A stretch of 62,600 nt of DNA, from positions 1-62,600 of the IMG/VR virus record IMGVR_UViG_3300006793_005371, one strand, 5' to 3'. The notes under the pieces were generated by a model. That model saw nothing but the letters and a program-made list of their open reading frames with translations. It was not told the DNA's origin and ran no database searches. Positions 15,214 through 51,016 of this stretch are shown here, piece by piece. Source of the DNA: a virus (taxonomy: Duplodnaviria; Caudoviricetes). A program made the translations under genes and the position numbers. Each line of letters begins with the position of its first letter. Within the stretch, counting starts at the first letter, position 1.

Positions 15214-15288
15214 GCCCCGTTCGTCTAGTGGTTAGGACACATGGTTTTCATCCATGCAACAGGAGTTCGATTCTCCTACGGGGTACCA
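15214..15288 (+). tRNA. tRNA-Glu(TTC)
   Basis: Cloverleaf, CATGG-TTTTCAT-CCATG anticodon arm, TTCGA T-loop, CCA end. Confidence 0.95.
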
Positions 15289-15295
15289 TGTTTAG

Positions 15296-15370
15296 GCGGA
15301 TGTAGTATAACGGCTATTATGAGACCTTGCCAAGGTTTAGATCCGAGTTCGATTCTCGGCATCCGCTCCA
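15296..15370 (+). tRNA. tRNA-Gly(GCC)
   Basis: GCGGATG/CATCCGC acceptor, TTGCCAA loop, CCA. Confidence 0.95.
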
Positions 15371-15378
15371 GTAGTAAT

Positions 15379-15453
15379 GGTCTGGTAGTTAAACGGTTAT
15401 AATTCCGCCCTGTCACGGCGGCGTTCGGGGTTCGATTCCCCGTCAGACCGCCA
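15379..15453 (+). tRNA. tRNA-Asp(GTC)
   Basis: GGTCTGG/TCAGACC acceptor, CCGCC-CTGTCAC-GGCGG, CCA. Confidence 0.95.
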
Positions 15454-15457
15454 TTAC

Positions 15458-15547
15458 GGAGAGTTGGCTGAGCGGCTTAAAGCACTTCCCTGCTAAGGAA
15501 GAGTACGGGTAACTGTACCGAGAGTTCGAATCTCTCACTCTCCGCCA
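15458..15547 (+). tRNA. tRNA-Ser(GCT)
   Basis: GGAGAGT/ACTCTCC acceptor, CTGCTAA loop, long variable arm, CCA. Confidence 0.95.
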
Positions 15548-22403: not shown

Positions 22404-23675
22404 ATGGATCATAAACAACATAGAGATATAACAGCAACAATAGACACCAAGGCCCAGCCTACTGGGGATAGAATTTACATGGACTATGCTTCTACTACAC
22501 CTTGCGATAAACGTGTAGTTGAATCTATGGTTAAGTACATGACTGAAGATGGAGAGTTTGGTAACCCAGCAAGTAGAAGTCACAGTTTTGGTTGGACAGC
22601 AGATGAGGCCGTTGAAACTGCTAGAAAGAATGTAGCAGACTTAATTGGTGCAGATCCTAAAGAAATAATTTTTACTAGTGGAGCCACTGAAGCAGATAAT
22701 CTTGCTGTTAAAGGTATAGCACAATTTTATGAAACTAATGGCAAACACATTATAACCAGTAAAATAGAACATAAAGCAGTATTAGATCCTTGCAGAGAAT
22801 TAGAACGCCAAGGCTTTGAAGTTACATACTTAGATCCTAATGAAGATGGTATAGTTACAGCACAAATGGTTATAGATGCTGTTAGAGACGATACTATACT
22901 TGTTAGCATTATGTATATCAATAATGAGATGGGCACAATCAATGATATTGAAGGGATTGGTGCGTTTTGTTTTGAAAATAAAATTATGTTTCATGTTGAT
23001 GCCGCACAGGCAACTGGTAAAATAGACTTCAACTTACAAGAACTGCCAGTACACGCAATGAGTTTATCTGCTCATAAAACATACGGTCCAAAAGGTATTG
23101 GTGCATTGTATGTTAGAAAAAAGCCAAGAGTAAGATTAAGAGGACAAATACACGGTGGTGGACACGAAAGAGGTATGCGGTCCGGAACATTACCTACACA
23201 TCAAATTGTAGGAATGGGTGAAGCATTTAAGTATGCTAGGCTTGAAATGGAAGAAAATAAACAACATGTTAAAATGTTGCATGATAGATTACTAGAAAAA
23301 CTTATAGGTATAGAAGAAACATATATTAATGGCTCATTAGATCACAAAGTACCAAACATACTCAACATAAGTTTTAACTTTGTAGAAGGCGAGTCTTTGA
23401 TTATGGCACTAGACAACGTTGCTGTAAGCAGTGGTAGTGCATGTACAAGTGCTAGTTTAGAGCCCAGTTATGTACTTAGAGCTATTGGCAGAGATGACGA
23501 ATTAGCACACAGTAGTATTAGGTTTAGTTTTGGAAGAACAACTACTGTAGAAGAAGTTGATAGTGTTGCCGAAACAATGCTCAATGTTATTGAAAAACTT
23601 AGAATACTATCACCTTTATGGGATATGTATTTAGACGGTGTTGATTTTAGTAAAGTTAAATGGAACGCACACTAA
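22404..23675 (+). CDS. iscS: Cysteine desulfurase IscS
   Basis: [47 protein letters not shown]. Confidence 0.97.
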
Positions 23676-25618: not shown

Positions 25619-25787
25619 GAATGACATAACTGGAGACAGTATAAAGTCAAAAATAAGCAAGGACCAAGACAAGTACGCAGATAGTTGGGAACGCATTTGG
25701 GGTAAGAAAAAAGAACACAAAGGTTCAAACGGAACTGATAGGAATCCACCAAGTGGAACAGAGAATTATGAAAAACAAGAAAGGTAA
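25608..25787 (+). CDS. Small hypothetical phage protein
   Basis: KNDITGDSIKSK...YADSWERIWG. Confidence 0.6.
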   Translation: MTSKNDITGDSIKSKISKDQDKYADSWERIWGKKKEHKGSNGTDRNPPSGTENYEKQER

Positions 25788-26088
25788 TACATTTCATCCA
25801 GAAGAGATTGCTAACAGTAATAGAATTTATAAAAGTGCAACACCTAAGTATGATGCAAGTTGGTATATCAAATGGATAGCCAGTTGTTTTATACTGTCAA
25901 GTATGAGTTTGCGAGGCATTGATGGTTTGCAGTTTTATGATCTTGTATTAAGTTTAGTTGGTGTAACAGGATGGATGATTGTAGGTATACTTTGGAAAGA
26001 TAGAGCATTAATGCTTTTAAATGGCGTAGGCATAATGCTTTTTGCTAGAACATTATTTAGGGATTATATAGGTCCGTGGATGTTATGA
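25768..26088 (+). CDS. Membrane protein, DUF6552-like
   Basis: WYIKWIAS...GWMIVGILWKDRALMLLN. Confidence 0.6.
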   Translation: MKNKKGNTFHPEEIANSNRIYKSATPKYDASWYIKWIASCFILSSMSLRGIDGLQFYDLVLSLVGVTGWMIVGILWKDRALMLLNGVGIMLFARTLFRDYIGPWML

Positions 26089-26504
26089 GTGAGATGAGTA
26101 AGGTGGAACAAGAAGTAGTAGAATCTAAATTAAGTTCTGACGTACAGGAGCAATTTAAAGACAGTACAATGAGTCGTGCTGGACGTCTTGCTCTAGAATT
26201 AAATGCTGAACGTAAACGTCTCAAAGAAGAGATGGATGTACTACAAACTGAAGTTGATGACTTAAAACCTGCAACACCAACAGGAACAGTTGACAGTTAT
26301 GTAAAATGGGTAGCAACTGTGTTTGGAGTATTAGGTGTGTTTATAATGAGTGCAGGCTTTAGTACAATAGGACAAATTGCATATTTATTAGCCGCCATAT
26401 CCTGGGTGTATGTAGGACATTGCTGGAACGACAAAGCAATTATGATTGGTAGTGCTATAAGTGGTACGGCAGTTATGATGAACTTAGTAAAGGTAATAGT
26501 GTAA
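26085..26504 (+). CDS. Membrane protein, paralog of upstream gene
   Basis: YVKWVAT...WVYVGHCWNDKAIM. Confidence 0.6.
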   Translation: MSEMSKVEQEVVESKLSSDVQEQFKDSTMSRAGRLALELNAERKRLKEEMDVLQTEVDDLKPATPTGTVDSYVKWVATVFGVLGVFIMSAGFSTIGQIAYLLAAISWVYVGHCWNDKAIMIGSAISGTAVMMNLVKVIV

Positions 26505-26704
26505 TGGAAACTGAAACTTACAAAGCATTAACAGTACATGAATTTCATTCTTTTGTAATGAGACAATTTAATGTAGGCCTACTTGATGAGCGTACTAAAA
26601 ACTTTAGATTAGAACAGTATCATACATTTGTAAATGCTGAAGGAAACATCTACATACATGTTAGCGAGTTTGAAAAGTTAGAGAAGTATGAAAACAAGAG
26701 TTAA
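26504..26704 (+). CDS. Hypothetical protein
   Basis: TAATG-coupled ORF. Confidence 0.5.
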   Translation: METETYKALTVHEFHSFVMRQFNVGLLDERTKNFRLEQYHTFVNAEGNIYIHVSEFEKLEKYENKS

Positions 26705-26966
26705 AATACTTGATGCCCGATATAACGATTCTGTAGAAGATTGGATATTAGATGATATGGTACAATCTACATTGCGACCTTTCTTTAAATGGCAAAGTTC
26801 TAATAAGGAAGTTAATGTAGAGTTTGTGCGTACCTGGGACGTTGACGGCTACACGCCTAAAATTATAATAGAAGCACAATTTAACCAACCCACTGACGCA
26901 GGCCTATTTGAACTAAGTTTTAATGATTTACCACTGGAATCACTAAGATCTTTTAGTTTTTCTTAA
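26688..26966 (+). CDS. Hypothetical protein
   Basis: ORF in gene run. Confidence 0.55.
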   Translation: MKTRVKILDARYNDSVEDWILDDMVQSTLRPFFKWQSSNKEVNVEFVRTWDVDGYTPKIIIEAQFNQPTDAGLFELSFNDLPLESLRSFSFS

Positions 26967-27027
26967 AAATAGTCTATTTTTTACCCAAAAAGTACCATAT
27001 TATTAACACCAGAAGATAAATATCTTT

Positions 27028-27535
27028 GCAGAAAAGAACTACAAGGGCAATTGAAACGTAAGTAACAAAAGTCTACTGTAGAACTTAGAAGCAGTTAGGA
27101 AGAAAGAATTTCTAATACAAGGTAAGTGAATCGTAAGTGAAACAAACCGAATGATTGGTCAGGACGACTAACTAACTTAAAGGGAAGTTAAATCTTCAAA
27201 AGAGCTCGGTATTAAGTTACTGTACAGCTCGGGTTTAACAGACCAAGTTTAGAAATAAACAAAATTGATTGTATTACGATCAGATATGTTCCGCAGTAAT
27301 GTATAGCATATCACAGATAAGAGAGAGAATCAAATTCAAGTAGACGCTCTGATACAAATCACCCTAGACATAGGTGTAGAAATACATAAATGCTTTAGGT
27401 TTTTGGGGTAACCAACAAACGGCTTTAGATGGCAACACTTAAAGACACGAAGAAGTTTACCAAGTAGAACAGAGGAACAGGACACACACTAACGAATGCT
27501 CCTCTGATCCGCGAACTTTTTATTCGCCAATAGGG
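27028..27535 (+). ncRNA. Candidate large (~500 nt) highly structured ncRNA
   Basis: 600-nt gap without plus-strand ORF, TAAATA at 27017-27022, more than ten hairpins, GNRA loops, long-range GTCTACT/AGTAGAC. Confidence 0.65.
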
Positions 27536-27575
27536 TTTAAAAAGTATTATAACTTGCTTAATAAAGGAGAAAACA

Positions 27576-28034
27576 ATGACAAAGCAATTACGATTCACAT
27601 CTGAATCATTATCCCCACTATATAAAATGAGCATCGGTTTTGATAGACTAGCAGACCAGTTTTTCAATGACCCATCATTTGCTACTGCACAAACAGGTTA
27701 CCCACCTTTCAACATTACAAAACAAATGGTTGAAGGACAAGAAGAGCCGTTGTATGCTATTACCCTAGCAGTTGCAGGATTTACAAAGAAGGACATAGAC
27801 ATCTCAATTGAAGATGGTACTCTTAAAGTTGAAGGAAAAACCAACATTATAGATACTGACGAATCAGTTGAATTTTTACACAAAGGCATTGCTGAAAGGA
27901 ACTTTACAAGAACTTTCAAACTTGCTGATTATGTAGAAGTAGAAAGTGCCAAACTAGAAGATGGCATACTAAGGGTTAATTTGTTTAGGAACGTGCCAGA
28001 GGCAATGAAACCTAAAACAATTGACATTTCCTAA
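27576..28034 (+). CDS. Small heat-shock protein Hsp20 (IbpA-like)
   Basis: IGFDRL, GYPPFNI, LAVAGF, FLHKGIAERNFTRTF, LEDGIL. Confidence 0.95.
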   Translation: MTKQLRFTSESLSPLYKMSIGFDRLADQFFNDPSFATAQTGYPPFNITKQMVEGQEEPLYAITLAVAGFTKKDIDISIEDGTLKVEGKTNIIDTDESVEFLHKGIAERNFTRTFKLADYVEVESAKLEDGILRVNLFRNVPEAMKPKTIDIS

Positions 28035-28049
28035 AACTGTAACGTAGTT

Positions 28050-28076
28050 GGGCGGCTACCAAAAGATAGTCGCCTG
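28050..28076 (+). terminator. Hairpin after hsp20
   Basis: GGGCGGCTA...TAGTCGCCT; no T tract. Confidence 0.4.
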
Positions 28077-28102
28077 ACACTATCACATATATAAATAGAT
28101 GT

Positions 28103-28399
28103 ATGGCACAAACTAAAACAGAACAGCGAACAGCAACGGAGATAACATTTCCTAAAAGATATAATGTTATTTTCCTCAATGACGACTTTACTCCTATGCC
28201 GTTTGTTATACATTTGCTTATTGAAGTATTCAATAAGGACATTGAAGAAGCACAGGATATAACTGTACAAATTCATGAGTCAGGTAAAAGTATAGTCGCA
28301 ACTTATTCATTAGAGATAGCCGAACAAAAAGTACATGAAGCAACGGTTGTATCTCGTCACGCAGGACATCCTTTACAGATTATTACAGAAGAACTATAG
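28103..28399 (+). CDS. clpS: ClpS adaptor
   Basis: YNVIFLNDDFTPMPFV, IHESGK, EIAEQK, HPL. Confidence 0.95.
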   Translation: MAQTKTEQRTATEITFPKRYNVIFLNDDFTPMPFVIHLLIEVFNKDIEEAQDITVQIHESGKSIVATYSLEIAEQKVHEATVVSRHAGHPLQIITEEL

Positions 28400-29604
28400 T
28401 GCTTGACCTAAAGAGATCATTCCCTACTCTTGCCAACAACCCAGAATTAGCATATTTCGATTCCGCCGCCAGTACTCAAACACATGAGTCAGTAATAAAG
28501 GCAATGAATGAATACTACGAACATTTTCGCTCTAACACAAACAGAGGCGAATATGCTATCAGCGAGAGAACTGCTGTTGCAGTAGAAACCGCAAAAGAAC
28601 AAGTAGCAAACCTTATTAATGTTCCTGCAAGTCAACTAATGTTTACCGCTGGTACAACGCAAGGCTTAAACATGATAGCACGTTGGATGAGAGATAAGAA
28701 AACTGTTATTGTAACAGAAGCAGAACATAATGCTAATATTGTTCCTTGGCTAACACAAGGTAAAAGTACGTCAGACGATAGTATTGCTGTTATGCCTATA
28801 AATGATTTTAATGGTGAAATTGACTTATACGAACTAGAAAAACTACTAGATAAACATGCTGGAGGTTGGCAAGATTTATTAGTAAGTTTTTGTGCTACAA
28901 GTAATGTAACAGGAGTTACACAACCATGGGAAGCCATAACTGACTTAGCACACAAATACGGTGCTAGTGTATGTATAGATTTTTGTCAAACTGTAGCACA
29001 CAAAAAAATAGACTTAACAAAAACAAAAGTTGAATTTGCAGTTTTTAGTTCACACAAAATGTATGGACCAACTGGCATTGGAGCATTATATACGTCATTT
29101 GATTTTGAAGACTTAGTTCCTCTTTACTATGGCGGTGGCGCAGTTGATTCAGTGTCGTTTGATAGTGTATCACTAAAACAAGGTGTAGCAAAACATTGTC
29201 CAGGAACACCGGATATTGCAAACATTATTGGCTTCGGTGTTGCTTGTGAAATGATAAGATATGTAGGTTATCCTACTATATATTTACAAGAGAAAGATGT
29301 ACTACAGAGTTTACTTAGTTATGGTGTTGATGTATTACCTAATTGTAGAGTATATCCTGAACTAGGATTTGACACAAATGTAATAAGTTTAATACCTATC
29401 AAAGGACATAGTGCTGATGTAGGACAACTAATGTCAAACACAGACGTTGCTATACGAACTGGTAAAGTATGTGCTCACCCTATAGTAGATAGAATAAGCG
29501 GAGGTAAAGGTATAGTAAGAATATCGTATGCTCCATATAACGATGATGCAGATTGTAAAAAACTTTGCCAAGAATTAGCCAAAGCACTAGTAAAGGTAAA
29601 ATAA
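28399..29604 (+). CDS. sufS: SufS/CsdA-type cysteine desulfurase
   Basis: YFDSAASTQ, EHNANIVPW, SSHKMYGPTGIG, RTGKVCAHP. Confidence 0.88.
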   Translation: MLDLKRSFPTLANNPELAYFDSAASTQTHESVIKAMNEYYEHFRSNTNRGEYAISERTAVAVETAKEQVANLINVPASQLMFTAGTTQGLNMIARWMRDKKTVIVTEAEHNANIVPWLTQGKSTSDDSIAVMPINDFNGEIDLYELEKLLDKHAGGWQDLLVSFCATSNVTGVTQPWEAITDLAHKYGASVCIDFCQTVAHKKIDLTKTKVEFAVFSSHKMYGPTGIGALYTSFDFEDLVPLYYGGGAVDSVSFDSVSLKQGVAKHCPGTPDIANIIGFGVACEMIRYVGYPTIYLQEKDVLQSLLSYGVDVLPNCRVYPELGFDTNVISLIPIKGHSADVGQLMSNTDVAIRTGKVCAHPIVDRISGGKGIVRISYAPYNDDADCKKLCQELAKALVKVK

Positions 29605-39123: not shown

Positions 39124-39539
39124 TATTAAAACTATTAGAAAAATTGGGTAGAAAGAGAGTTATACTTGATGCAGACAACGAGCCGTACCTAACAAGGTAT
39201 TACTTGTTTTTAAAAGATAGGAAATGGTTTCCGTTTAACATATTCCTACACAACTTTCACAAAGGAGATCCGGATGACTTACACGATCATCCTTGGCCTT
39301 TTATCACTATTATCCTTAAAGGGGGTTATTGGGAACATACGCCGACTGGCAAGTACTGGCGGCCCGCAGGTACGGTACGCCTTGCAGGCAGTAGTCAACT
39401 TCATCGCGTTGAGCTTGAGCCTGGCGTTGCTGTTTGGACATTATTTTTTCCAGGTCCAGTGATAAGAGAATGGGGATTTATGAAAAAAGGTAAGTGGGTA
39501 CAACACGAAAAGTACCTTGCAGAACGATATAAAAACTAA
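39120..39539 (+). CDS. Cupin-fold phage protein
   Basis: LHDHPWPF, GGYWEH, HRVEL, WTLF, REWGF. Confidence 0.8.
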   Translation: MILKLLEKLGRKRVILDADNEPYLTRYYLFLKDRKWFPFNIFLHNFHKGDPDDLHDHPWPFITIILKGGYWEHTPTGKYWRPAGTVRLAGSSQLHRVELEPGVAVWTLFFPGPVIREWGFMKKGKWVQHEKYLAERYKN

Positions 39540-39555
39540 GGCAGGACACAAAGAT

Positions 39556-40770
39556 ATGAAAATGGCAGTTACAGGAGTTGGAGTTGTTTCTCCACTAGGA
39601 AATGACTTACCGACTAATATAGAAAATTTAAAGGACATGGTAGTGCCGTTAGCAGATGCTAGGATTAAAGATGACCCTATAGCATCACCACTAATGAAAC
39701 TATCCAAAATATTTCATGCGAACTACGATGATGTAAACATTGACGATTTAGTTCCAGACAGAGATCAACGTTATTCAGATCCTATTTGTACTACAAGTTT
39801 AATTGCAGTTGATGAAGCAGTTAGGATGAGCGGAATAAAAAAATTACCTGAAGATACTCCAGTGTTTGTGGGCAGTATTCAAGGTGGTTGTTTAAGTGAA
39901 CTAGATTGGGTAACAGATCTAATCAAAGGTAGAAGAAAAATACACCCTAAAGTATTGCTTAACTCTGCACAAGAATATGTTAGTAACGTAATAAGCGAAC
40001 ATTATAAAATACATGGTCCTGCAAGTGTTATTGCCGCAACATGTATCTCTGGTGTACAAGCATTACAAACAGCAGAAAAGTACTTAGAGACGGGCACAGA
40101 CGTTGCTATCGTAGGTGCTACAGATTTCATGACGTCAAGTACAACACTATACTACTTTCAGGCATTAGGTGCCCATTCAAATACACCAAAGAGTGTACCA
40201 TGGGACATTGACCGAGATGGTATTATACCAGGAGAGGGTAGTGTGTACTTGATTGTTGAACCCTTAGAAAAAGCAGAGGCTCGAGGTGCTAACATACGTT
40301 GGGTTATTGACGGCATAGGTATTGCCAGTGATGCTCATCACCCTACTCAACCGGACCCAGAAGGTACTGGTGGTAGATTAGCAATACAACAAGCAATGGA
40401 TAGAGCAGGTACTACAAAAGAAGATTACAATGTTGTGAATGCACATGCCACAGGCACACCAGTTGGCGACCCTGTAGAGTTTAATGTACTAAAAGAATAC
40501 TTTAACAAAGACTCCTGGTTATACAGTAACAAAGGACAGATAGGACATATGATGGGTGCTAGTTGTCTAATAGAACTGGTGCTGGGTGCAGAAGCAATGA
40601 CACAAGACTTTATTCCAGGTAATGCAGGACTTGTGGAGCCATTTGATACATCACACTTTGCATTTACATTTGATAGTAAAAAGCATTTTGATTATAATAG
40701 ACTTATGAAAACAAGTTTTGGATTTGGAGGTAGGAGTTCCGCTGTGAGTGTAAGCAAATATGAAAAGTAA
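39556..40770 (+). CDS. fabF: Beta-ketoacyl-ACP synthase (FabF/FabB family)
   Basis: VTGVGVVSPLG, ATC, GEG, NAHATGTPVGD, KGQIGHMMGA, SFGFGG. Confidence 0.9.
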   Translation: MKMAVTGVGVVSPLGNDLPTNIENLKDMVVPLADARIKDDPIASPLMKLSKIFHANYDDVNIDDLVPDRDQRYSDPICTTSLIAVDEAVRMSGIKKLPEDTPVFVGSIQGGCLSELDWVTDLIKGRRKIHPKVLLNSAQEYVSNVISEHYKIHGPASVIAATCISGVQALQTAEKYLETGTDVAIVGATDFMTSSTTLYYFQALGAHSNTPKSVPWDIDRDGIIPGEGSVYLIVEPLEKAEARGANIRWVIDGIGIASDAHHPTQPDPEGTGGRLAIQQAMDRAGTTKEDYNVVNAHATGTPVGDPVEFNVLKEYFNKDSWLYSNKGQIGHMMGASCLIELVLGAEAMTQDFIPGNAGLVEPFDTSHFAFTFDSKKHFDYNRLMKTSFGFGGRSSAVSVSKYEK

Positions 40771-50092: not shown

Positions 50093-51016
50093 ATGATTAT
50101 ACAGCCAGACATATATCGACTCAATAGAGACCCTGAGCTGTCTCCTTGGTTTAAGGAACAGTTAGCAAAACAAATTTCTTTTGGAATTTTTCACAACGAC
50201 ATACAAGGATTACAAACATCCTTAGTAAAAGACTTGATTGAATACAAAGCAAAATATGGTCTCGAGCATGTGGTAATAGGAATTAGTGGTGGCATTGATA
50301 GTGCCGTTACTGCTTTACTATTTAAACAAGCAGGTTGGTCAGTAACAGGTTGTATGTTGCCTATTCATCAAGACGATGAAGAACTAGAAAGAGCCAGAAC
50401 ATTTTGTATGGAACAGTTAGACAGTTGGATTGAACATGACTTGTCTAAACAATTTGATGCATTAGTTTCTATTATGGATGAAACAATTTCGCATGACGGA
50501 TTATCAGATGATAAAGTACGTCAAGGTAACATTAGAGCAAGACTTAGAATGATTACATTGTATGATCTTGCTAGTAAACATAAAGGTTTAGTTGCGAGTA
50601 CTGATAACTTTTCAGAACTTGCTACAGGATTTTGGACATTGCATGGTGACGTTGGTGACGTCTCACCTATCCAAGCATTGACAAAGAGCTGGGAAGTTCC
50701 TGCATTAGCAGAACATCTTGGAGTTCCACGTACTATAGTGGAGGCAGTACCCACAGACGGCTTAGGTATTGCCAACGGTGACGAGGACCAATTTGGTTTT
50801 AGTTACTTAGAGTTTGACATTGCATTGTTTTCTATTCTTAGAGGCGATGTAGATCAAACTAAATTAACCGACGAAGATAGAGCGATTGTAGATGCGGTCG
50901 CTGACCGAGTGAGGAGTACTACTTACAAACGTACAAATCCGTTCAATCTTAGTCATCCCTTTGATTCTGTTAGGTACGACGAATTAAATAAACTAGATAA
51001 CTACTTAAGGAGTTAA
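50093..51016 (+). CDS. nadE: NH3-dependent NAD+ synthetase
   Basis: GISGGIDSAV, GNIRARLRM, STDNFSE, GFWTLHGD, PTDGL, DEDQFG. Confidence 0.93.
   Translation: MIIQPDIYRLNRDPELSPWFKEQLAKQISFGIFHNDIQGLQTSLVKDLIEYKAKYGLEHVVIGISGGIDSAVTALLFKQAGWSVTGCMLPIHQDDEELERARTFCMEQLDSWIEHDLSKQFDALVSIMDETISHDGLSDDKVRQGNIRARLRMITLYDLASKHKGLVASTDNFSELATGFWTLHGDVGDVSPIQALTKSWEVPALAEHLGVPRTIVEAVPTDGLGIANGDEDQFGFSYLEFDIALFSILRGDVDQTKLTDEDRAIVDAVADRVRSTTYKRTNPFNLSHPFDSVRYDELNKLDNYLRS

What the first reader, a model, noticed from the sequence alone, without database searches (positions are those of the whole stretch)
27017..27535. Candidate ~500-nt ornate ncRNA behind a late promoter
Seen: a 600-nt gap in a genome of abutting genes, starting with gaTAAATA (predicted +1 at 27028) and tiled with stems: TTAGGAA/TTTCTAA, TTGGTC(27155)/GACCAA(27241) enclosing TAACTT/AAGTTA and GAGCT/AGCTC, GTTTA-GAAA-TAAAC, TGATTGT/ACGATCA, GATATGTT/AGCATATC, TGTA-GAAA-TACA, GTTT-TTGG-GGTAA-CCAA-CAAAC, CTTTAG/TTAAAG, CAGAGGAACA/TGCTCCTCTG, GCGAA/TTCGC; two C-GTAA-G loops; long-range GTCTACT(27071)/AGTAGAC(27339). 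A-rich linkers and GNRA loops support the plus strand. Inference: a large structured RNA comparable in size to phage-associated ROOL/GOLLD classes, possibly a new class. I could not match it to tmRNA or RNase P. Alternatively a very long hsp20 leader.
Basis: partly seen in the sequence, partly recalled or inferred. Interest (0 to 1): 0.85.

Follow-up and report, generated by a model that had tools for sequence, protein, structure and literature searches.

The report
Giant structured leader RNA of phage hsp20
The gap holds a real, conserved, elaborately folded RNA of about 550 bases that always sits between a promoter box and the start of a marine phage's small heat-shock gene, matches no catalogued RNA family, and most likely controls that gene's translation.

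Summary
The 609-nt gap (26967-27575) is real and non-coding. It belongs to a family of 57 distinct full-length sequences (365-588 nt) from uncultured marine phage contigs. 56 of 57 are followed directly by hsp20; the other contig ends after 23 codons. Covariation supports the fold. In the 3' domain 90.4% of cells pair, against 35-47% with partners slid, and 24 of 40 pairs change on both sides. In the 5' domain 82.7% pair, against 34-42%, and 14 of 28 pairs change on both sides. In each case 0 of 500 shuffles reach the covariation score. G.U cells outnumber A.C cells 207 to 48, and only the + strand folds better than shuffles (z -3.3 against -0.9).

Its UUGG-GGUAA-CCAA hairpin and its long-range pair do not.

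Rfam 15 has no match, two motifs are absent from 185,579 prokaryote genomes, and four literature searches show no description. No terminator-like site precedes hsp20. An invariant UUGCU lies 5-7 nt before the SD, as in ROSE thermometers. Its complement AGCA(A/G) is kept at codons 2-5 in 57 of 57 members, even across reading frames.

Best reading: a giant cis-regulatory hsp20 leader, and a new RNA class. A trans-acting role is not excluded. Contigs of four metatranscriptomes cover it.

The parts
26973..27003 (+). Degenerate sigma-70-like -35/-10 region. The hexamers are intact in many relatives and weak in the window.
   Evidence: 29 of 57 members match TTGAnn-N16-19-TAnnnT upstream of the box. 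The window's copy was not picked up by the promoter scan.
27015..27022 (+). (G)ATAAATA box, of the T4 late-promoter type. It marks the 5' edge of the conserved block.
   Evidence: Sequence. The box was found in 79 of 95 pattern hits; of the 16 without it, 10 were cut by a contig end. The base before the box is G in 32, T in 16 and C in 9 members. It is not enriched in the window. Promoter function is inferred.
27026..27044 (+). P1 hairpin
   Evidence: 88% of cells pair, but 0 of 5 pairs change on both sides, so support is weak.
27045..27074 (+). Module 1: helix P2 (GGGC:GUCU) encloses hairpin P2a, which has a stack of purine-purine and U.U pairs and a GUAA loop at 27058-27061.
   Evidence: 7 of 9 pairs change on both sides.
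27075..27095 (+). P3 hairpin, variable in length
   Evidence: 70% of cells pair and 2 of 7 pairs change on both sides, so support is moderate.
27095..27115 (+). Its sequence and length vary between members.
   Evidence: A hairpin of differing sequence sits at this place in other members (alignments, by eye). It was not countable by column.
27121..27148 (+). Module 2 (P5), a duplicate of module 1 with a GUAA loop at 27133-27136
   Evidence: 5 of 7 pairs change on both sides. The non-canonical stack becomes Watson-Crick in L083 and L113. L073 and L086 carry a hairpin inserted next to the loop.
27149..27403 (+). Variable middle domain, 25-276 nt across members. The stretch of about 27262-27395 is an insert found in only 5 of 57 members.
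   Evidence: Lengths and modules are. The GAGCUC-type helix covaries in 23 of 26 members.
27407..27461 (+). Helix A (27407-27411 with 27457-27461) encloses hairpin B/C (27420-27449), whose loop AUGGCAACA is conserved.
   Evidence: Helix A: 5 of 5 pairs change on both sides. B/C: 8 of 9.
27469..27507 (+). Helix D hairpin. Its loop holds the stretch ACACACUA.
   Evidence: 9 of 10 pairs change on both sides. The loop motif was invariant already in the members found without it as a search term.
27511..27545 (+). Helix F (27515-27522 with 27538-27545). Stem E (27511-27514 with 27524-27527) could form a pseudoknot with it.
   Evidence: F: 98% of cells pair, 2 pairs change on both sides and 3 vary by wobble only. 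E never changes on both sides, so it cannot be tested.
27550..27590 (+). Translation start region: UUGCUU 27554-27559, SD AGGAG 27565-27569, AUG 27576-27578, AAGCAA 27582-27587
   Evidence: The UUGCU-to-SD spacer is 5-7 nt in 57 of 57 members. AGCA[AG] lies at CDS nt 6-15 in 57 of 57, and Lys codon choice follows it. The minimum-energy fold pairs 27554-27559 with 27582-27587.
27576..28034 (+). hsp20 gene (152 aa)
   Evidence: Pfam HSP20, E 1e-17. Downstream ORFs of 56 of 57 members match it.

Best explanation
The gap encodes the 5' leader of the phage hsp20 mRNA, enlarged into a folded RNA of about 550 nt (365-588 nt in relatives).

Transcription (inferred): it starts a few bases after the ATAAATA box at 27016-27022. 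In many relatives an upstream sigma-70-like promoter could also drive it. It runs through the structure into hsp20 without a terminator.

Fold (shown by covariation):
- A 5' domain holds two duplicated hairpin modules capped by GUAA loops.
- A middle of interchangeable hairpins can be almost absent.
- A 3' domain has helix A enclosing hairpin B/C, then hairpin D with a conserved loop, then helix F.

Control point (inferred): the invariant UUGCU lies 5-7 nt before the SD. It can close the start region in two ways. One is imperfect pairing with AGGAG, as in ROSE thermometers. The other is Watson-Crick pairing with AGCA(A/G) at codons 2-5, which leaves the SD and AUG in a loop. Opening of this stem would set how much Hsp20 is made.

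Role of the large upstream body (inferred): it would set or sense that equilibrium, through temperature or a bound factor such as Hsp20 itself, and would protect the transcript's 5' end.
For: - Linkage: 56 of 57 distinct members have hsp20 directly downstream. A scan with a 5'-domain motif alone found only members that also carry the 3' domain and hsp20. Upstream neighbours differ: a minus-strand gene in L004 and L005, a plus-strand ORF in the window and L002.
- No + strand terminator-like site lies in 26600-28500.
- Contigs of RNA libraries bridge the 3' domain and the CDS: X2 record 20 covers 27439-27949 and X1 record 6 covers 27491-28119.
- Fold: with the numbers given in the summary. G.U 207 against A.C 48 cells. 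Strand-specific z-scores.
- Constraint: mean pairwise identity is 0.742 for the 5' domain, 0.747 for the 3' domain and 0.720 for the hsp20 CDS, over 49 members.
- Start region: more distant phage hsp20 genes have short leaders that end in the same ACUUGCU...AGGAG...AUG.
- UUGCU-to-SD spacing is 5-7 nt in 57 of 57 members. AGCA[AG] lies at CDS nt 6-15 in 57 of 57. The Lys codon of the first K-Q is AAG in 46 of 46 members where it builds that motif, and AAA in 11 of 11 where other codons build it in another frame. Elsewhere in hsp20, Lys is AAA 560 times and AAG 114 times.
- Literature (passages read): U(U/C)GCU paired to the SD defines ROSE-like thermometers of sHsp genes (PMC3669281). E. coli IbpA represses its own mRNA through 5' UTR stem-loops (PMC10410725).
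Against: - No experiment or read-level data show the 5' end, the 3' end or any regulation.
- Canonical thermodynamics gives only intermediate support. At 15 C the mean pair probability is 0.37 for UUGCU:AGCAA (above 0.5 in 23 of 57 members) and 0.31 for the ROSE-type pairs. The SD is predicted unpaired with probability 0.39-0.50 from 5 to 37 C, with little temperature dependence.
- UUGCU and AGGAG are invariant, so their pairing cannot be tested by covariation. The codon argument rests on few independent events: three of the seven N-terminus types.
- A 350-570 nt body is far more than a thermometer needs, and its conserved loops suggest a function of its own.
- Word depth of contigs over the leader is higher than over the CDS in all four runs. 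This would fit a separate stable RNA, although the tool warns that contig depth cannot rank parts of a gene.
- The box is not enriched in the window, and no T4 hallmark gene was seen in the 10 ORFs scanned against PHROGs or the 10 scanned against Pfam.
Confidence: 0.55

Rival explanations
1. The large fold is a stable non-coding RNA in its own right, either processed from the hsp20 transcript or ended before the gene. It would act in trans, for example as a scaffold or decoy for a host or phage factor, and would merely share a promoter with hsp20.
For: - The architecture resembles that of functional RNAs: a conserved core, conserved loops (ACACACUA in D, AUGGCAACA in B), twin GNRA-capped modules, and optional peripheral hairpins capped by GNRA or UUCG loops.
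- The body is missing from more distant phage hsp20 leaders, which manage with about 70 nt, so it is an add-on.
- Contig word depth over 27029-27514 is 77-164 (X1), 233-2312 (X2), 13-20 (X4) and 11-95 (X14). Over the CDS it is about 11, 14, 4 and 0.
- 13 of 24 listed runs are on record as RNA, and the 24 runs come from 13 studies.
Against: - No terminator-like site lies before hsp20.
- The element was never found apart from hsp20.
- Contigs bridge the leader and the CDS.
- Contig breaks fall at strain-variable segments, so they are not RNA ends, and the tool states that contig depth cannot rank parts of a gene.
- Structured leaders often outlive their mRNAs without having a trans function (general knowledge).
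Confidence: 0.25
2. The leader is an autoregulatory platform. Phage Hsp20 oligomers bind its stem-loops and repress their own translation until they are titrated away by aggregating proteins, as E. coli IbpA does on the ibpA 5' UTR.
For: - IbpA self-repression through 5' UTR stem-loops, with its need for the IX(I/V) motif, is described in PMC10410725 (passages read).
- The window's Hsp20 ends in ...TIDIS, which holds an I-x-I.
- The two duplicated modules with identical internal loops could be repeated protein sites.
- Linkage to hsp20 is strict.
Against: Nothing here tests binding. The E. coli leader is short and unrelated in sequence. The short leaders of other phage hsp20 genes lack the modules.
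Confidence: 0.15
3. It is not an RNA structure at all, but a DNA-level element (origin, packaging or recombination site) or a decayed coding region.
For: The region is AT-rich and intergenic, and holds many inverted repeats.
Against: - G.U 207 against A.C 48 cells in the helices.
- Only the + strand folds better than its shuffles.
- Compensatory changes keep pairing while the sequence changes.
- The longest + strand ORF per member is 14-86 aa, at differing places.
- Contigs of RNA libraries cover it.
Confidence: 0.02

Closest known systems
ROSE-like RNA thermometers (Rfam ROSE, ROSE_2, ROSE_3) in 5' UTRs of bacterial small heat-shock genes
   Same: It lies in the 5' UTR of an Hsp20-family gene. 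An invariant UUGCU, which fits U(U/C)GCU, lies a few bases before the SD and can face AGGAG in a small 3'-proximal hairpin. The AUG is left outside that hairpin.
   Different: - It is 365-588 nt with more than ten helices, against 60-120 nt with two to four hairpins.
- It scores 14 bits on ROSE_3, whose gathering score is 43.
- The G-C pairs that flank the core in Pseudomonas are absent.
- A second, Watson-Crick partner for UUGCU inside the CDS is kept in 57 of 57 members.
Large ornate RNAs of phages and bacteria (ROOL, GOLLD)
   Same: It is several hundred bases long, phage-borne, and has many covarying helices with variable peripheral hairpins. It is known only from sequence.
   Different: No Rfam match at any threshold tried. 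It is fixed in front of one protein gene on the same strand with no terminator, rather than standing free. That ROOL and GOLLD usually stand near tRNA genes is recalled, not tested here.
E. coli ibpA/ibpB 5' UTR under IbpA self-repression
   Same: A structured leader of an sHsp gene. The protein has the C-terminal I-x-I motif.
   Different: No sequence likeness and a far larger fold. Binding was not tested.
Phage T4 gene 32 leader (a pseudoknot followed by an A/U-rich tract, bound by its own protein)
   Same: A possible H-type pseudoknot (E with F) lies 30-60 nt before the start, followed by an A/U-rich tract. PMC10690425 mentions GP32 leaders as phage cis-regulatory RNAs (passages read).
   Different: Stem E is untestable, the gene is a chaperone rather than a single-strand binding protein, and the details of the T4 leader are recalled.
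Long sensor leaders (T-box, riboswitches with large expression platforms)
   Same: A conserved folded sensor-like body lies upstream of a start region that can be closed by an alternative pairing.
   Different: It is two to three times longer. No ligand or tRNA-binding signature was found, and no terminator/antiterminator pair.

Membership tests
ROSE-like RNA thermometer | Lies in the 5' UTR of a small heat-shock (Hsp20/IbpA) gene | tested here: met
   hsp20 starts at 27576 (Pfam HSP20, E 1e-17). 56 of 57 members are followed by hsp20.
ROSE-like RNA thermometer | U(U/C)GCU motif close upstream of the SD | tested here: met
   UUGCU lies 5-7 nt before the SD in 57 of 57 members. The motif definition comes from PMC3669281.
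ROSE-like RNA thermometer | The motif is imperfectly paired with the SD in the 3'-proximal hairpin | tested here: inconclusive
   The geometry allows U:A, C:G, G.G, U:A and U.G. The canonical part has a mean probability of 0.31 at 15 C. Both sides are invariant, so there is no covariation. A rival partner lies in the CDS.
ROSE-like RNA thermometer | Two to four hairpins, roughly 60-120 nt in all | tested here: not met
   365-588 nt with more than ten helices.
ROSE-like RNA thermometer | Reaches the gathering score of an Rfam ROSE model | tested here: not met
   ROSE_3 gives 14 bits, E 4.7, against a gathering score of 43.
ROSE-like RNA thermometer | Translation rises with temperature | not testable with these tools
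   In silico, SD accessibility changes little from 5 to 37 C: 0.39 to 0.50.
ROOL, GOLLD and other curated large RNAs (Rfam 15) | Match to the family's covariance model | tested here: not met
   At gathering thresholds only 4 tRNAs in the window. Nothing significant in a permissive scan of the gap. One unrelated hit in seven member loci.
tmRNA / RNase P RNA | Detected by ARAGORN or by the Rfam models | tested here: not met
   ARAGORN finds 4 tRNAs and no tmRNA. Rfam finds none.
T4-type late promoter | TATAAATA-like box a few bases upstream of the transcript start | tested here: inconclusive
   (G)ATAAATA lies at 27015-27022 and at the 5' edge of conservation in every member extracted, though the extraction required it. 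It is not enriched in the window. No T4 hallmark gene was seen. RNA-library contigs of X4 and X14 begin at 27036 and 27045 with no loose end, which is only a weak hint.

The most novel reading that the evidence does not exclude
This is a new class of large ornate RNA with at least ten helices, twin GNRA-capped modules, a possible pseudoknot and optional expansion hairpins. Phages grafted it onto a ROSE-type heat-shock leader. It would fold into a discrete three-dimensional body that either acts as the largest known sensor domain of a translational switch or has a trans function of its own. It would also be a widespread phage transcript in marine metatranscriptomes.
Probability: 0.3. Interest if true: 0.85.

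Novelty: new variant of a known kind. Interest (0 to 1): 0.68.

Why it matters
Structured RNAs of more than 350 nt with solid covariation are rare, and most of them still lack a known function. This one comes with an unusually clear handle. It is welded to a single gene, hsp20. Its start region carries the hallmark motif of heat-shock RNA thermometers. Relatives with a plain 70-nt leader supply a natural "minus body" control.

That makes an open question directly testable: what does a large ornate RNA add to a simple switch? It would also be the first described cis-regulatory RNA of the hsp20 gene, which many marine phage records carry (482 phage records match this Hsp20, most of them cyanophages). 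Runs from several metatranscriptome studies hold it, which suggests that it is made in the sea.

The minimal 365-nt member (L073) is a practical target for structure probing or cryo-EM.

Tried and rejected
- Rfam at gathering and permissive thresholds gave nothing relevant. ARAGORN found no tmRNA.
- blastn of the gap against 50,697 named phage records found no match.
- Two motif scans of 185,579 prokaryote species genomes gave 0 hits each. These are exact-motif scans, so distant relatives could be missed.
- A conserved small ORF was rejected.
- Helix G was my idea: AAGU at 27462-27465 with ACUU at 27552-27555, closing a junction and competing with the start-region stem. It never changes on both sides and has pair probability 0.00 in 57 of 57 members, so I dropped it.
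- Homology of helix F to the single hairpin of the short leaders is not shown. The model's alignment is carried by the last ~30 nt only.
- Stem E, and a pairing of CUACU (5' domain) with AGUAG (3' domain), are nearly invariant and cannot be tested.
- Reading contig ends as RNA ends was rejected. Breaks at about 27117, 27153, 27468 and 27489-27505 coincide with segments that differ between strains.
- The X4 contig 27036-27493 runs into an Illumina adapter. I do not interpret this.
- Parts without cover: none of the four RNA runs covers 26462-27028 or 28325-28700.
- The higher word depth over the leader than over the CDS is a hint only.
- Phage lineage: PHROGs and Pfam on large ORFs gave no structural or T4 hallmark genes. 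One ORF taken for a marker proved to be IscS.
- ATAAATA is not enriched in the window.
Pieces of this element may be among them. Its main text holds no 'heat shock' or 'chaperone' and no 'hsp20' (listing).
- Errors of mine. The structure string was mistyped, so its counts are void; one search replaces them. In one search the partner test for the 5-bp case was written the wrong way round, so the window falls under 'no partner' although it has GAGCU:AGCUC.
- In one search, six pattern hits with full upstream sequence lacked my strict 5' box pattern and were not examined further.
- P4 and the inner part of P3 could not be counted by column because their lengths differ.
- Complex prediction, structure prediction and the protein database searches were not used.

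Full report
WHAT IS THERE. Between the stop of a 92-aa ORF (26966) and the ATG of hsp20 (27576; Pfam HSP20, E 1e-17) lie 609 bases with no + strand ORF of 30 aa or more. ClpS (28103-28399) and a cysteine desulfurase-like gene follow. The window is a fragment of an IMG/VR virus record, estimated 27% complete, with G+C of 0.35-0.38. As RNA, the + strand of 27017-27535 folds at -116.3 kcal/mol (z -3.29; 0 of 100 shuffles as good). The - strand gives z -0.88.

RELATIVES. The gap has no blastn match among named phages. Scanning viral contigs with the hsp20 protein found four loci whose upstream non-coding DNA matches the gap at both ends but differs in the middle. Motifs from that alignment found more members in viral contigs and 76 stretches in metagenome contigs, TARA records among them.
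- These gave 57 distinct sequences of 365-588 nt.
- 56 of 57 have an hsp20 ORF directly downstream. The other contig ends after 23 codons.
- The scan with a 5'-domain motif alone returned 21 stretches. Those that the profile confirmed all carried the 3' domain and hsp20, and the rest were chance matches.
- Upstream neighbours differ between members.
- Two motifs are absent from 185,579 prokaryote species genomes.

ASCERTAINMENT. In the metagenome set, three short stretches of the 3' domain are invariant by construction, because they were the search pattern. They were already invariant in the ten members found by other means.

THE FOLD. The layout is a 5' domain of about 125-160 nt, a middle of 25-276 nt, and a 3' domain of about 175 nt.

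3' domain, on a plain MAFFT alignment of 54 distinct sequences:
- RNAalifold predicts 25 pairs, 16 of them with changes on both sides.
- My fuller structure has 40 pairs. 90.4% of cells pair, against 35-47% with partners slid by 1-3 columns.
- 24 pairs change on both sides, against 9-14 when slid.
- 282 cells change on both sides, against 35-67 when slid.
- The covariation score is 0.370, against 0.047-0.086 when slid, and 0 of 500 shuffles reach it.
- Helix A: 5 of 5 pairs change on both sides. B/C: 8 of 9. D: 9 of 10. F: 2 of 8, plus 3 that vary by wobble only.

5' domain (28 pairs):
- 82.7% of cells pair, against 34-42% when slid.
- 14 pairs change on both sides, against 2-7 when slid.
- The covariation score is 0.192, against 0.018-0.056 when slid, and 0 of 500 shuffles reach it.
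- The support comes from P2/P2a and P5, which are two homologous hairpin modules. Each has a GUAA loop closed by C:G (A:U in 3 members of module 1; G:C in 1 member of module 2). Each has an internal stack of G.A, R.A, A.G and U.U pairs, which is replaced by Watson-Crick pairs in L083 and L113.
- P1 has no two-sided change, and P3 has two.

The middle is built from interchangeable hairpins capped by GNRA or UUCG loops. One of its helices appears in three complementary versions in 23 of the 26 members that carry its strict context. Across the 60 pairs, G.U cells number 207 and A.C cells 48, so the + strand is the RNA. No ORF is conserved. The two domains are at least as conserved as the hsp20 coding sequence: 0.742 and 0.747 against 0.720 mean pairwise identity over 49 members.

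These stems hold: helix B, helix D, both GUAA loops, GAGCU/AGCUC, the P4 hairpin, and two hairpins of the insert that only the window's subclade has (5 of 57 members).
- The UUGG-GGUAA-CCAA hairpin fails, because GGUAA pairs with UUACC about 50 nt downstream.
- The long-range GTCTACT/AGTAGAC pair fails, because its partner lies in the subclade insert and GUCU is taken by P2.
- GCGAA/TTCGC (stem E) is nearly invariant. Its loop is the 5' strand of helix F, so E is either part of a pseudoknot or not real.

LEADER OR GENE? The scan finds no terminator-like site on the + strand.

In more distant phage hsp20 loci the leader is only about 70 nt long. It consists of a TATAAATA-type box, one hairpin, and then ACUUGCU, a short A/U tract, AGGAG and the AUG. 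The window's last ~30 nt before the ATG match some of these letter for letter (by eye). The 3'-domain model hits the distant loci only through that stretch. So the family in hand is that same leader with 300-500 nt of folded RNA added between the promoter box and the start region.

The start region:
- UUGCU lies 5-7 nt before the SD in 57 of 57 members.
- U(U/C)GCU facing the SD is the stated hallmark of ROSE-like thermometers of sHsp genes, and two-hairpin versions of 61-62 nt exist (PMC3669281, passages read).
- By length and by Rfam score (14 against 43 bits) the element is not a ROSE member.
- A second partner exists. AGCA(A/G), complementary to UUGCU, lies at CDS nt 6-15 in 57 of 57 members.
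- It is built by Lys-Gln codons in 46 members, always with AAG for Lys. It is built in other reading frames in 11 members, which then use AAA for that Lys. Elsewhere in the gene AAA outnumbers AAG 560 to 114.
- This looks like selection on the RNA, although it rests on few independent lineages.
- Folding gives both closures intermediate probability: 0.37 and 0.31 at 15 C.

EXPRESSION. 24 public runs hold 34-52% of the sampled words of 26900-28100, and 13 of them are on record as RNA. Contigs of four RNA runs from four studies cover 27036-27520, and some bridge into hsp20. Only contigs were available, so starts, ends, strand and level are not shown. The higher word depth over the leader than over the CDS is a hint that the folded part accumulates, nothing more.

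WHAT IT MOST LIKELY IS. It is a cis-acting hsp20 leader whose start region is closed by UUGCU. The large body sets or senses that closure and stabilises the 5' end (confidence 0.55). The signal could be temperature, as in ROSE, or Hsp20 itself, as E. coli IbpA acts on its own 5' UTR (PMC10410725, passages read). The main rival is that the body is a stable RNA with a function of its own (0.25). Shown: the family, the fold, the strand, the linkage to hsp20, and presence in RNA libraries. Inferred: the promoter, co-transcription, the closure of the start region, and every functional statement.

NOVELTY. Four full-text searches list no description of a phage hsp20 leader. Rfam 15 has no model for it. 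I file it as a new variant of a known kind: a structured heat-shock leader, here enlarged into a new class of large RNA.

Noticed in passing
L007-L041 (for example L024 and L030, 2930-3000): More distant phage hsp20 genes carry a conserved short leader of about 70 nt. It has a TATAAATA box, one hairpin whose stem differs between loci while staying paired, then ACUUGCU, an A/U tract, AGGAG and the AUG. This is the layout of the short two-hairpin ROSE-like thermometers. None of the papers listed by my four searches describes it.
   Followed up: partly
window 27262-27395: An insert of about 130 nt with three hairpins occurs in only 5 of 57 members (window, L087, L119, L082, L107). Each hairpin seems to show a compensated change between the two subgroups (by eye).
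   Followed up: partly
L073 and L086, module 2: A 17-nt hairpin capped by GCAA is inserted directly 5' of the GUAA loop of module 2, so that position tolerates a whole extra helix.
   Followed up: no
L071, L091, L120, L123 (5' domain): Module 2 is replaced by a second copy that looks like module 1, and helix A is fully recoded (CCCUA:UAGGG). The two modules are duplicates that can replace each other.
   Followed up: no
window 15214-15547: A cluster of four tRNA genes (Glu-UUC, Gly-GCC, Asp-GUC, Ser-GCU) on the + strand.
   Followed up: no
window 22404-23675, 28399-29604, 39517-40770, 50093-51016: A run of auxiliary metabolic genes: an IscS-like cysteine desulfurase, a second desulfurase-like gene, a beta-ketoacyl synthase and an NAD synthase, beside ClpS (28103-28399) and Hsp20.
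   Followed up: partly
window 25753-26088 and 26076-26504: Two adjacent paralogous small membrane-like proteins with DUF6552 lie just upstream of the element.
   Followed up: no
window 27036-27493 (run X4): Oligo-dT-selected libraries of one study hold the element. One contig covers 27036-27493 with a single difference and then runs into an Illumina adapter. Capture may be through the A-rich linkers.
   Followed up: no
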